Source of the DNA: Candidatus Hodarchaeota archaeon
GTDB taxonomy: Archaea; Asgardarchaeota; Lokiarchaeia; Sigyniarchaeales; SOKP01
DNA length: 64,000 nt
Direction: 5' to 3'
NCBI GenBank assembly: GCA_048886685.1
Contig: JBHLKM010000003.1
Location: forward strand, 32,001-96,000
Part shown: positions 42,420 to 46,217 of the stretch, in pieces
How the letters are laid out: every line of letters begins with the position of its first letter
Position numbering within the stretch: the stretch's first letter is position 1
Translations under genes and position numbers: made by a program
Notes under the pieces: generated by a model
What the model saw: only the letters and a program-made list of their open reading frames with translations
Databases searched by the model: none
What the model was told of the DNA's origin: nothing

Positions 42420-43919
42420 TCATTCTATAGAGATAATCGTATTTCTTTTAATAGCTGAGTAATATTGAACTATACATGTTTTTCCAACTATTTCCTGAGT
42501 CTCGAAAGTTTTAAGCAATTCTGGTTTTATAACGAATGCAATACTACGACGCCCATTATCAAGAGTACCTATTACAACTCCTCTATAAAATTCCCCCGTT
42601 CGCTTATAAATAATAGAATAGCCATCAATAATGATTTTACCGTTTGCTTTTTCAACAGGTTCGGGCAAGATTTTCTTTAAAATTGATTCTTGTATTTCAG
42701 AGTCGTCCCGAACACCCCATTGTATCATAGGTGGTGTTTTACCATAGATCCCAATTGATTGTTTAGTGTTGTATCCACCATTTGCTATAACCATCACTTT
42801 TAAGGAAGGGTTGGCACGAATTGATTCAACAGTATTGACAATTGCATGTAAAGAATAATTACTCAATGGGGTGCCAAAAAATGGGAGGCCTCCTGTAAGT
42901 GTTAAATCACGTGGATCATCTTCTTCAATTCCAAGTTCCTTCATAAAGATCTCTACAACAGAAGGAAAACAACTATATAAGTCAAATTTATCAATATCAC
43001 TTAACTCTAAACCCGCTTGTTCTAAAGAAAGACGAACTCCTTCTCTTGCTGCTGGAGAATCATCAAGTCGTGGACGTCGATAGAGATCATCCACATTTTT
43101 GAATGTTGCCCCTCCCATTATATAAATCTGTTTATTTTTATCAATTTCAAGTGATTCTGCAATTTCTTCACTTGTAATTAAAATTGTCCCTGCTTGATCT
43201 ACAAAATTATTCGCGCACATACGTTTAGTATAAGGGTGTACTATAAGACGATTCTGAGGTGATGGTGTAATAATTTCTTCAGCGCTAAATTGCTTTTGAG
43301 TCCAGCTATAAGGATTTTTTGATGCAACCTTAGAAAAACGTTCAAAGAGTTTTCCCATATATTTGTTATGTTCTTCGATGCTGCGTCCAGATGAAGCTCT
43401 TAATGCTGTTTCTAAAATTGCATAGCTAGTTGTTGCAAAATATAATTGATAGTGTATACTTTCTTTCCCCAATGGCCATCTCTCCCCAATAATGTACTCT
43501 GGATCTTCTTTTTTCGGCCAATAATCAGGAGCATTCCCTTTAAATGTTTTTCTTAAAGAATAGGCAGCTTCTCCTCCTGTGATAAGAACGCAACGGTGTT
43601 TCCCAGTTGCAATTGCTTTAGCGGCTTGATTAACTAACATCTGAGGGCTTTGTCCTCCATCGGGTAAATATACTTTTTCTTTAGGAGAAATATTAAGCCT
43701 TTTCCCAAGTTCACCAGGAGCGTCTTTATATGACCATGAACTAATATTAACCATATATATAGCATCTATGAAATCACTAATGTTTTTAGCTTGTGTATCT
43801 TCTATTGCCTTTTGTCCGGTCTTTACCATTAAACTAAGGGAATCAAGAGGTTTGAGCGTATTTCTGCGTTGCGTATATTGAGCAACACCAATTATAACTG
43901 GAGTATTTTTATTATTCAT
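42420..43919 (-). CDS. Thiolase-like protein (TLP1-type acetyl-CoA acetyltransferase family)
   Basis: PVIIGV.Q, GGQSPQ, GGEA, PYTK.M, DLYSCFP and LTGGLPFFG motifs. Confidence 0.85.
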   Translation of the reverse strand: MNNKNTPVIIGVAQYTQRRNTLKPLDSLSLMVKTGQKAIEDTQAKNISDFIDAIYMVNISSWSYKDAPGELGKRLNISPKEKVYLPDGGQSPQMLVNQAAKAIATGKHRCVLITGGEAAYSLRKTFKGNAPDYWPKKEDPEYIIGERWPLGKESIHYQLYFATTSYAILETALRASSGRSIEEHNKYMGKLFERFSKVASKNPYSWTQKQFSAEEIITPSPQNRLIVHPYTKRMCANNFVDQAGTILITSEEIAESLEIDKNKQIYIMGGATFKNVDDLYRRPRLDDSPAAREGVRLSLEQAGLELSDIDKFDLYSCFPSVVEIFMKELGIEEDDPRDLTLTGGLPFFGTPLSNYSLHAIVNTVESIRANPSLKVMVIANGGYNTKQSIGIYGKTPPMIQWGVRDDSEIQESILKKILPEPVEKANGKIIIDGYSIIYKRTGEFYRGVVIGTLDNGRRSIAFVIKPELLKTFETQEIVGKTCIVQYYSAIKRNTIISIE

Positions 43920-44045: not shown

Positions 44046-45352
44046 TTGAAGAAAGTAGCAATAATAGGTATAGGCATTACACCTTTTCGAGCACGATATC
44101 TAGATAAAACATATTTCGAACTAGCATATGATGCTACAAGCCTAGCTCTCGAAGATGCCAATAAAAATGGTGCGGATATTACTCATAAGGATTTGCAGTC
44201 AACTGTCTACGGGATTTATAACGAACTATTTGAACGTCAATTCATGCCTGATATTTTTGTTAATAGCTATCTTGGCATGAATAATAAACCAGGAACACGT
44301 ATCGCTTCAGGAGGTGCAACTGGGGGATATACGGTTAGAATGGCTTATGCAGAAGTAGCTTCAGGACTTTCAGATTTATGTTTATGCATCGGAGTTGAGA
44401 AGTGTAATGATTGCTATGATGAACAAACTGGAGTGACTACTCCTGAAGTACTTAACGCCATTGCTTATAGTGCGGATATGACGTATATTATATAGTAACA
44501 TAATTACTATATGAGCGGAAGAATATCCGATGGGAAAATATTGTTTGGATGTCCCAACTATCCCCATTGATGGCAGCTTCATCATATGTTTCAATGGTTA
44601 ATGCTCACTTTGAGGAATTTGGAAATCCAACAGAAGAACAGATGGCATTAGTTTCAGTAAAAAATCATGGTAATGCAATTAATAATCCTAAAGCTCAATC
44701 GCCAATGAAAATTACAGTAGAAGATGTTATGAATTCAAGAATTATTTGTTATCCTTTTAAATTATTAGATTGCTGTCTTTATTCTGAGGCCTCTGCCGCC
44801 TTAATACTAGCCAATGAAGAAAAAGTTAAGGAATTAAAGATAGAAAAACCGATTTGGATTTCTGGAGTAGGTGCCGCTAATACAGACTGTTTTATAGGGA
44901 ATAGAGAAGATATGGGAAGGTTGTATTCAAATATTTATGCAGCAAAAGCAGCCTATAAAATGGCACAATTAGACTATGACAAAATCAAAAGTCAAATTGA
45001 TTTAGCAGAATTGCATGATGCTTTCTCTGGACAAGAGGTTATCTCCTACGAGGAATTAGGATTTGTAAAATTCGGAGAAGGCGGTAGTTGGATTGAATCA
45101 GGAGGACCACTAATGGATGGTGAATTACCATGTTGCCCTTCAGGAGGGCTTATTGGGTGTGGTCATGCTGTAGGGGCTACGGGGATTATGTCCACAGGAG
45201 AGGCAGCACTTCAATTGAGAGAAGATGCTGGAAAGCATCAAGTGAAGACAATTAAAAATGGAAGAGCTATTTCTCATTCAATTGGGGGTCCTGGTGCAGC
45301 TTATGCTGCGGTTATTGTGATGGAAAATGAGGAGGGGATTAGTAAAAAATGA
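44046..45352 (+). CDS. Thiolase-domain protein (SCP-x/aldolase type), interrupted by two putative BHB introns; exons 44046-44486, 44521-44536, 44568-45352 (413 aa)
   Basis: Track ORFs 44046-44495 and 44549-45352 are the N- and C-halves of one thiolase (GVEK; KNH.NA..NP.A; ELHDAF; GH.VGATG). Removing 34 + 31 nt joins them via EYPMG. Confidence 0.85.
44487..44520 (+). other. Putative mRNA intron 1 (34 nt, relaxed BHB)
   Basis: 11-bp inner stem TTATATAGTAA/TTACTATATGA, bulge AT^A, central helix ACGT/GCGG, bulge AA^G, outer helix CGGATAT/ATATCCG. Contains the in-frame TAG. Confidence 0.8.
44537..44567 (+). other. Putative mRNA intron 2 (31 nt, relaxed BHB)
   Basis: Central helix TGGG/CCCC, bulge AA^A, inner stem ATA..GTT.GG/CC.AAC.TAT, 3' site AT^T. 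Removal gives GGA ATG ATG in frame. Confidence 0.7.
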
Positions 45353-45843
45353 GTAATGAATTTCAAGCTCATCAGATAAGAGATATAATTAAGATTAATT
45401 ATAAATATACCATGGGAGGTCAATCCAAATTTTTCCTAGAGTTAATGAAAAATAAGAAGATTTTAGGAGCAAAATGCTCTAAATGTGGGAAGATTTGGAT
45501 GCCCCCTAGAATTAATTGCTCAGATTGTTATGTACCTGCTGAATGGAAAGAAGTGAAACAAACTGGTATCATAGAAGTGAGTACAATTGTCTGGTTTACC
45601 ACCTCCGCTTTTATCAAAAATATTCCATATGCTACAGGATATATTAAATTAGACGGAGCTGATACAGCCCTATTGCAAGGAATTTTTTCAGATAATTTAG
45701 TGCCATCAAAAATTAAAAAAGGGAAACGTGTGAGAGCTGTATTTCAAAAAGAAAGAGAGGGAAAAATGACAGATTTCTTTTTTGTTCCTGAAGATGAGTA
45801 TGAGAATTGGATAAATAAACCAGAATACGAAGGAGGAGATTAG
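45349..45843 (+). CDS. DUF35 Zn-ribbon/OB-fold protein
   Basis: C..CG....PPR..C..C. ATGA overlap with the thiolase stop. Confidence 0.9.
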   Translation: MSNEFQAHQIRDIIKINYKYTMGGQSKFFLELMKNKKILGAKCSKCGKIWMPPRINCSDCYVPAEWKEVKQTGIIEVSTIVWFTTSAFIKNIPYATGYIKLDGADTALLQGIFSDNLVPSKIKKGKRVRAVFQKEREGKMTDFFFVPEDEYENWINKPEYEGGD

Positions 45844-45845
45844 TA

Positions 45846-46217
45846 TTGGGAGTTGCGAGTGAAGCTTTAAAAAAAATTATTGAAAGGATGAATAAAATAT
45901 CTAAAGCTCAACAAGTGTTTGTTACGGATATTGGAGGGAATTCAGTAAATTGGAATATGGTATTTCAATTTAATTTAGATAATGAAGATCCATTTTATTT
46001 GGTAATTGAAAATCAAAAGGTAGATCTTAAACCTGGTACTGCACATGAAACAGAAATCGTAATGTCTGGAGATAATAATGCAATCGTAAAGATTTGCAAT
46101 GGTAAGGGGGATTTCACGCATGCTATCAGTCGTGAAGAAATAACAGTGGAAAAAGGTAAAGTTATAGATGTTATTAGATTAACTAGAGCAATAACAATTG
46201 TTTTAAAAGCAGAATAA
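45846..46217 (+). CDS. SCP2 sterol/lipid-binding domain protein
   Basis: FQF.L....FYL.I and I..G..D...A.....I.VE pattern. In thiolase operon. Confidence 0.7.
   Translation: MGVASEALKKIIERMNKISKAQQVFVTDIGGNSVNWNMVFQFNLDNEDPFYLVIENQKVDLKPGTAHETEIVMSGDNNAIVKICNGKGDFTHAISREEITVEKGKVIDVIRLTRAITIVLKAE

What the first reader, a model, noticed from the sequence alone, without database searches (positions are those of the whole stretch)
44473..44573. Two BHB-type introns and a 16-nt micro-exon in a protein-coding (thiolase) gene of an Asgard-like archaeon
Seen in sequence: the thiolase frame stops at TAG 44493 and resumes in another frame. Between them lies GAATATCCGATGGGA (EYPMG) in a third frame, flanked by two hairpin inserts. 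Insert 1 has outer helix CGGATAT(44473-79)/ATATCCG(44523-29), central helix ACGT/GCGG, 3-nt bulges AT^A and AA^G, and an 11-bp inner stem. Insert 2 has central helix TGGG/CCCC, bulges AA^A and AT^T, and an inner stem. Cutting after the 2nd nt of each bulge removes 34 and 31 nt and gives a continuous 1242-nt CDS (413 aa, ...ADMTYEYPMGMMAASSY...). This matches the D-x-x-x-E-x-P-x-G loop seen in paralogs here (DPILDRPLT, DPRFEKPISG). Established: archaeal tRNA-splicing endonuclease (EndA) cuts BHB motifs at that position, and the well-known mRNA example is the cbf5 intron of Crenarchaeota. Inference: this organism splices mRNA with its tRNA machinery. To my knowledge, a multi-intron gene with a micro-exon in the lineage closest to eukaryotes is not described. 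Standard gene callers would report this locus as a broken gene.
Basis: partly seen in the sequence, partly recalled or inferred. Interest (0 to 1): 0.96.

Follow-up and report, generated by a model that had tools for sequence, protein, structure and literature searches.

The report
Two tRNA-type mini-introns split Asgard thiolase
A thiolase-family gene of a Loki-type Asgard archaeon is broken by two hairpin inserts (34 and 31 bases) around a 16-base micro-exon; comparison with about 80 related genes shows they are maintained introns that the tRNA-splicing enzymes very probably cut out of the messenger RNA, which the papers I could search report inside only one archaeal coding sequence (cbf5).

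Summary
Confirmed. Removing 44487-44520 and 44537-44567 gives a 413-aa protein that aligns gap-free across both junctions, at 83-93% identity, to dozens of intron-less Promethearchaeota orthologs. Only the bulge-helix-bulge (BHB) cut register restores their residues.

Six other distinct sequences carry intron 1 at the same site (28-35 nt, all three frames, compensatory stem changes); five also carry intron 2. Synonymous exon bases in the helices, bulges and micro-exon are frozen in carriers (10-11/11) while others drift (about 47%). The same gene has BHB inserts at eight positions across Lokiarchaeia.

This genome has at least ten such inserts, including in its single uL11 and uvrB genes. It encodes a two-subunit EndA with the broad-specificity K-P-R loop, and RtcB. 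Carriers are polyphyletic (p-AU 1e-86), and one shares a ~115-nt, 97%-identical tract, suggesting lateral transfer of the intron pair.

Splicing is inferred from DNA, not observed. Both motifs are relaxed; intron 2 lacks its own outer helix. The scan has already reported this phenomenon, and this gene, in other genomes.

The parts
44046..44486 (+). Exon 1 of a Cys-less SCP2/Ltp-type thiolase-fold gene (TTG start, codons 1-147)
   Evidence: Thiolase_N
44487..44520 (+). Intron 1, 34 nt, phase 0, contains in-frame TAG (44493-95); 11-bp stem 44488-98/44504-14, central-helix strand 44515-18
44521..44536 (+). 16-nt micro-exon (EYPMG plus the first base of Met153); supplies the 3' strand of the outer helix of motif 1 (44523-29) and the central helix and bulge of motif 2 (44531-36)
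44537..44567 (+). Intron 2, 31 nt, phase 1; stem 4 bp + 3-nt bulge + 4 bp (TTGG/CCAA) in all six carriers; central-helix strand 44562-65; relaxed BHB/BHL
44568..45352 (+). Exon 3 (codons 153-413; HDAF at 302, GCGHA at 349)
44473..44484 (+). Exon-1 side of motif 1: outer helix strand 44473-79 and central helix strand 44481-84; codons GCG and ACG fixed in all carriers
44457..44463 (+). 5' strand of a long-range exon-exon helix that pairs with 44592-44598 and closes both motifs into one domain (predicted; invariant in all 7 aligned carriers, so no covariation test)
44592..44598 (+). 3' strand of the closing helix; Ser161 codon TCA in 8/8 carriers versus 21/68 non-carriers
45349..45843 (+). ChsH2/DUF35-like Zn-ribbon + OB-fold gene overlapping the thiolase stop (usual partner; Pfam hits just under cut-off)
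45846..46217 (+). SCP2 sterol-carrier-like gene, third gene of the probable operon

Best explanation
The two inserts are archaeal endonuclease-type (BHB/BHL) introns in a functional mRNA. Shown: the DNA anatomy, exact empty sites in orthologs, selection on the protein and on the RNA fold, and the presence of the enzymes. Inferred: the pre-mRNA folds into one domain closed by a long-range helix; the two-subunit EndA cuts after the second base of each 3-nt bulge; RtcB joins the exons; only the doubly spliced message gives the 413-aa enzyme (unspliced or intron-1-retained 149 aa, intron-2-retained 173 aa, exon skipping 147 aa). Intron 1 has the stronger motif and probably goes first (weak inference). 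The intron pair is polymorphic among Lokiarchaeia and has probably moved at least once between lineages by recombination together with its exon flanks.
For: Spliced protein gap-free against full-length orthologs, 83-93% identical to the ~45 closest. DNA alignment to 17 intron-less congeners shows exact empty sites with no duplication. Only the BHB register restores TYEY and GMM; neighbouring registers give stops or other residues (read from the sequence). Intron 1 at the same site is 28, 29, 30, 31, 34 or 35 nt long in different carriers, and every complete spliced ORF is 411-420 aa. 96% of cells paired and three pairs with two-sided changes in the intron-1 stem; slid controls 34-46%. Strain variants in read-set contigs change U-A to C-G and U-G to C-G. 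Synonymous exon sites in helices, bulges and micro-exon are 10-11/11 identical to four distant carriers, other synonymous sites at background 39-56%; non-carriers 4-7/11. Eight insert positions in this gene, all with BHB geometry. Motif-free genome comparison: 7/13 frame-breaking inserts pass a strict BHB rule versus 4/51 in-frame indels and 2.4% of random sites. Single-copy uL11 and uvrB are interrupted in the same way. EndA alpha with His and K-P-R loop, EndA beta, RtcB present.
Against: Both central helices have one non-standard pair. Motif 2 has no outer helix and its BHB register has low predicted probability (0.04-0.14). The gene is one of more than ten thiolase paralogs, so it is not itself essential. 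The 'paired' exon set was defined on this window's fold, partly after seeing the alignment, and carriers share ancestry at the site. Covariation counts rest on 7 related sequences.
Confidence: 0.9

Rival explanations
1. Pseudogene inactivated by small hairpin insertions (MITE-like or replication-slippage palindromes).
For: Non-essential, paralog-rich family; most orthologs lack the inserts (56 of 78 rows have none); in-frame stop.
Against: dN/dS about 0.05 with no other lesion. The same two inserts persist in sequences 76-80% identical elsewhere. No target-site duplication and no other copies in the genome. Compensatory changes. The same inserts interrupt the only uL11 gene.
Confidence: 0.03
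2. The gene is expressed unspliced as two polypeptides (149 aa, and a C-half starting at ATG 44549 or 44570) that assemble, or by ribosomal frameshifting or bypassing.
For: An in-frame ATG lies inside insert 2 (ORF 44549-45352); both halves look intact.
Against: That ATG is absent from the other carriers. The micro-exon, which would be untranslated, keeps EYPMG in every carrier. Insert lengths cover all three frames at one site, so no single recoding event fits. Boundaries coincide with BHB cut points at eight independent sites.
Confidence: 0.03
3. The inserts are removed at RNA level by something other than EndA/RtcB, or excised at DNA level in part of the population.
For: Intron-less alleles occur in the same sediment samples; motif 2 is weak.
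Against: Those alleles differ at many other positions (e.g. CCA for CCG, 55 differences in 268 nt), so they are other strains, not excision products. About 30 nt cannot hold a group I or II ribozyme (established knowledge). The geometry is that of EndA substrates and resembles tRNA introns of the same genome.
Confidence: 0.03
4. Assembly artefact.
For: The genome is a MAG with 8% estimated contamination.
Against: An identical contig from another study and variant forms of both inserts in JGI and GenBank assemblies.
Confidence: 0.01

Closest known systems
cbf5 pre-mRNA intron of Desulfurococcales and Sulfolobales (Watanabe 2002; Yokobori 2009, PMC2738675; reviewed in PMC10485636)
   Same: Short intron inside a coding sequence, relaxed BHB motif, cut after the second bulge base, two-subunit (alpha-beta)2 EndA with a CSL-type loop, patchy distribution.
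   Different: cbf5 has one intron at one site in one gene and is confirmed by cDNA and cleavage.
HVO_1309 5'-UTR BHB intron of Haloferax volcanii (PMC7714728)
   Same: EndA-cleaved intron (46 nt) in an mRNA.
   Different: Lies outside the coding sequence, so it does not break the frame; homodimeric enzyme.
Non-canonical multi-intron tRNA genes of Asgard archaea and Thermoproteales (PMC11291895; bioRxiv 10.64898/2026.10.13.758758)
   Same: About 30-nt BHB hairpin introns, several per gene, repeatedly gained, arrival route unknown; (alpha-beta)2 EndA.
   Different: Those reports concern tRNA genes only; the preprint has no mention of mRNA or cbf5.

Membership tests
Archaeal BHB/BHL (EndA-spliced) intron | Two 3-nt bulges on opposite strands around a 4-bp central helix (relaxed forms allowed) | tested here: met
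   Met in relaxed form: 3 of 4 pairs in each motif; 4 of 4 for intron 2 in L206
Archaeal BHB/BHL (EndA-spliced) intron | Exon-intron borders after the second base of each bulge | tested here: met
   Empty sites in orthologs fix all four borders at these positions
Archaeal BHB/BHL (EndA-spliced) intron | Flanking helices (intron stem and exon-exon helix) | tested here: inconclusive
   Intron 1 has both (11 and 7 bp, with covariation in the stem); intron 2 has an intron stem but no adjacent exon-exon helix
Archaeal BHB/BHL (EndA-spliced) intron | Host encodes EndA able to take relaxed substrates, and an RNA ligase | tested here: met
   Alpha subunit E 5e-34 to PDB 3p1z_B with catalytic Tyr/His/Lys motifs and loop K-P-R (K44-P45-R46 in A. 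pernix, PMC12397907); beta subunit lacking His; RtcB E 1e-167. Substrate range is inferred from sequence.
Archaeal BHB/BHL (EndA-spliced) intron | Cleavage by EndA and ligated exons or circular introns in RNA | not testable with these tools
   Needs RNA from a carrier or an in vitro assay
Group I / group II self-splicing or spliceosomal intron | Ribozyme core of hundreds of nt, or GT-AG ends | tested here: not met
   34 and 31 nt; ends AT..AA and AA..AT
MITE / insertion-sequence remnant | Target-site duplication and dispersed copies | tested here: not met
   Exact empty sites; no second copy in the genome
Canonical Cys-dependent thiolase | Nucleophilic Cys and C-terminal catalytic Cys | tested here: not met
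   RIASGGATGG, HDAF, GCGHA, HSIGG; an intron-less ortholog scores below all NCBIfam cut-offs; fits SCP2/Ltp-type thiolase-fold proteins with a ChsH2/DUF35 partner

The most novel reading that the evidence does not exclude
Lokiarchaeia run a genome-wide mRNA-splicing regime on their tRNA machinery: tens of ~30-nt BHB introns per genome, several per gene, with micro-exons whose bases serve two splice motifs (ordered, possibly regulated splicing). The introns encode no protein yet are gained at many sites and passed between lineages by recombination that carries the exon bases needed for the motif. This would be a non-spliceosomal exon-intron gene architecture in the archaeal group closest to eukaryotes.
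Probability: 0.6. Interest if true: 0.95.

Novelty: new variant of a known kind. Interest (0 to 1): 0.86.

Why it matters
A 2023 review counts two spliced archaeal mRNAs, only one in a coding sequence (PMC10485636). If this holds, splicing of protein-coding messages is routine in an Asgard lineage, with multi-intron genes and micro-exons. Many 'broken' genes in these genomes, including ribosomal proteins, would then be mis-annotated, which affects metabolic reconstructions and phylogenomics. It also makes two open questions testable: how protein-free BHB introns arise and spread (one gene gives eight sites with occupied and empty alleles), and whether uncoupling of transcript maturation from translation existed near the origin of eukaryotes. 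These introns are not homologous to spliceosomal ones, so the link to eukaryotic introns is an analogy.

Tried and rejected
RNA check: no RNA holder listed; the four runs laid were DNA contigs.

De novo genome scan for BHB motifs joining two frames: not discriminating (218,130 loose hits; 777 hits against 659 and 747 under wrong-geometry nulls), so no genome-wide count is drawn from it.

Protein-level break search against a relative's ORFs was swamped by shadow ORFs and was replaced by DNA alignment. It misses inserts near gene ends or where both genes are interrupted close together (uL11 was missed), and the second run dropped the thiolase and one other site that the first run found.

Alternative outer helix for motif 2 (CC 44527-28 with GG 44572-73): predicted probability 0.0.

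Source of the introns: no similar sequence elsewhere in the genome, tRNA introns included.

Literature: eight searches found no report of coding-sequence BHB introns in Asgard archaea; the library lacks most subscription papers.

Full report
1. Observation. The sequence is as described. The frame starting at TTG 44046 stops at TAG 44493-95; the C-terminal part lies in another frame. Removing 44487-44520 (34 nt) and 44537-44567 (31 nt) gives 1242 nt and 413 aa with one terminal stop. Every partial product is truncated: 149 aa unspliced or with intron 1 retained, 173 aa with intron 2 retained, 147 aa if the micro-exon is skipped. Motif 1 has a 7-bp exon helix, a G.A mismatch, a central helix with three standard pairs plus A.G, two 3-nt bulges and an 11-bp stem (z = -5.0). 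Motif 2 has three G-C pairs plus U.C, two bulges and a bulged stem, but no adjacent exon helix (z = -0.9), and an alternative register competes with it. Both motifs are therefore relaxed, the second more so.

2. Organism and orthologs. Close hits are named Promethearchaeota/Promethearchaeia (Lokiarchaeia). The spliced protein is 83-93% identical to the ~45 closest full-length orthologs, most 411-419 aa long, with no gap across TYEYPMGMMAASS. At DNA level, 17 congeners show exact empty sites with no duplication. Shifting either cut by one to three bases gives a stop or a residue unlike the orthologs, so the borders are fixed independently of the motif, and they fall after the second base of each bulge. 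dN/dS is about 0.04-0.05 against the three closest intron-less orthologs, similar in both large exons. The genome has no second ortholog; other paralogs are at most 35% identical over the full protein.

3. Not an artefact. A contig from a different study covers 44403-44559 with no difference (depth 2.4). Two further contigs carry variants of intron 1 in which U-G becomes C-G and U-A becomes C-G or U-G (reconstructed from the listed differences, which are incomplete). Intron-less alleles in the same sediments differ at many other sites and are other strains.

4. The same introns elsewhere. A pattern scan and a genome scan found intron 1 at the same site in six other distinct sequences (L174/L177, L175/L237, L176, L178, L206, L210). 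Lengths are 35, 28, 30, 35, 31 and 29 nt; all but L210 also have a 31-nt intron 2. These genes are only 76-80% identical to ours. Lengths in all three frames at one site exclude a single frameshift or read-through route. On the alignment 96% of cells pair and three intron-1 pairs change on both sides, while slid controls pair 34-46%. In L206 the central helix of intron 2 is a full four pairs.

5. Selection on the exon fold. Codons GCG143, ACG146 and CCG150, which build motif 1, are present in 8/8 carriers and in 8, 3 and 2 of 68 non-carriers. Against four distant carriers, synonymous sites in the helices, bulges and micro-exon are 10-11 of 11 identical, while other synonymous sites in the same stretch are at background (11-15 of 26-28); non-carriers score 4-7 of 11. 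This includes a long-range helix 44457-63/44592-98 (pairing probability 0.8-0.97) that closes both motifs. The paired set was defined on this window's fold and carriers share ancestry at the site, so this is strong but not independent evidence.

6. A gene with many intron sites. Of 78 ortholog rows, 22 have at least one insert and two have three. Inserts of 28-35 nt occur after coding nucleotides 32, 378, 381, 441, 444, 457, 539 and 922. All fit BHB geometry, and removal restores 411-420 aa wherever the locus is complete. At site 381 a synonymous exon change (GAAC to GAGC) is matched by the intron strand (GTTT to GCTT).

7. History. On a tree that omits the junction region, the seven carriers of intron 1 need six changes, and one clade is rejected (p-AU 1e-86; for our gene with L174 and L178, p-AU 0.001). 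Our gene's nearest row is intron-less L181 (85-87% identical outside the junction, 80% within it). With L174 it is 77-79% identical outside but 97% over about 115-120 nt around the introns, and unpaired synonymous sites are also elevated (23/27 against 0.51, p = 2e-4). The simplest reading is recent recombination that moved the intron pair with its flanks. Ancient presence with repeated loss would explain the patchiness but not this tract. The mechanism of first insertion is unknown; no source sequence was found.

8. Genome context. A motif-free DNA comparison with 2.8 Mb of a congener found frame-breaking inserts of 29-34 nt in uvrB, an acetoacetate-CoA ligase-like gene, cdhA, pfk, a thioredoxin, a gamma-carbonic anhydrase and this thiolase (gene names from motifs and earlier notes), plus four in the congener. 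In the larger run 7 of 13 frame-breaking inserts passed a strict BHB rule, against 4 of 51 in-frame indels and 2.4% of random sites. The only uL11 gene reads through GGPPIGPAVGP, 165 aa, only after removing 35 nt at a BHB motif; purA looks the same (not ortholog-tested). That makes at least ten inserts in nine genes; 15-25 per genome is an extrapolation. An interrupted single-copy ribosomal protein is the best argument that the cell removes such inserts.

9. Machinery. There are two EndA genes. One keeps the catalytic Tyr, His and Lys motifs and aligns best to crenarchaeal alpha subunits (E 5e-34), including the loop K-P-R. That triad matches A. pernix K44-P45-R46, which the literature links to cleavage activity and broad specificity (PMC12397907). 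The other lacks the His and is the likely beta subunit. RtcB is present. Several tRNA genes carry 27-31-nt BHB-shaped introns of similar build.

10. Mechanism. Inferred: the transcript folds, EndA cuts both bulges of motif 1 and of the relaxed motif 2, RtcB ligates, and the 413-aa protein is made. Every base of the micro-exon sits in or between the two motifs. Whether splicing is ordered is open; intron 1 has the stronger motif and exists alone in L210, whereas intron 2 was never seen alone. The product is a Cys-less thiolase-fold protein in an operon with ChsH2/DUF35 and SCP2 genes, by established knowledge of Ltp2-type enzymes probably an aldolase-like enzyme of lipid or steroid side-chain breakdown (inference).

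11. Relation to what is known. cbf5 is the one confirmed coding-sequence case; its authors note that others were predicted but not confirmed (PMC2738675). HVO_1309 is a 5'-UTR case (PMC7714728), and a 2023 review counts these two (PMC10485636). Asgard intron papers cover tRNA only. The chemistry is thus a known kind; the multi-intron, micro-exon, genome-wide and laterally exchanged form is a new variant. Earlier notes of this scan describe the same phenomenon in many Asgard genomes and this same gene in at least four others; some claim RNA support for other genes, which I did not check and do not count.

12. Verdict. Real feature; splicing by EndA/RtcB about 0.9; new variant of a known kind; interest 0.86.

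Noticed in passing
L259:1321-1355 (G000 C1:204867-204901, +): 35-nt BHB-type insert in the only uL11 gene; removal restores GGPPIGPAVGP and 165 aa.
   Followed up: yes
G005 C1 about 1129377-1129404 (within L090): The congener's uL11 has its own 28-nt BHB-type insert (central helix GCAT/ATGC) at a different site.
   Followed up: partly
G000 C3:215413-215441, C40:3422-3451, C18:88180-88213, C16:51416-51445, C1:288829-288858, C5:86550-86580, C2:178201-178230: BHB-type inserts in uvrB, acetoacetate-CoA ligase-like, cdhA, pfk, thioredoxin, gamma-carbonic anhydrase and purA genes.
   Followed up: partly
L241 and L243, after coding nt 444; L203/L205/L223 after 381 versus L002/L188/L235 after 378: Unrelated introns sit exactly one codon from other intron sites (441/444 and 378/381): insertion hot spots or intron sliding.
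   Followed up: partly
window 44046-46217: Cys-less thiolase-fold gene + ChsH2/DUF35 + SCP2 operon, likely aldolase-type lipid or steroid catabolism; a divergent second thiolase-like gene lies at 42420-43919 (-).
   Followed up: partly
Ortholog set, coding nt about 985: Many orthologs have an in-frame 15-18-nt extra stretch (some two) that is ordinary protein length variation, not an intron; this genome lacks it.
   Followed up: partly
G000 tRNA genes, e.g. C15:47740-47845, C10:147026-147130, C7:6016-6116, C6:58906-59010: About 27-31-nt BHB-shaped introns, some at non-canonical positions that ARAGORN mis-parses; a tRNA-Sec is also called on C1.
   Followed up: partly
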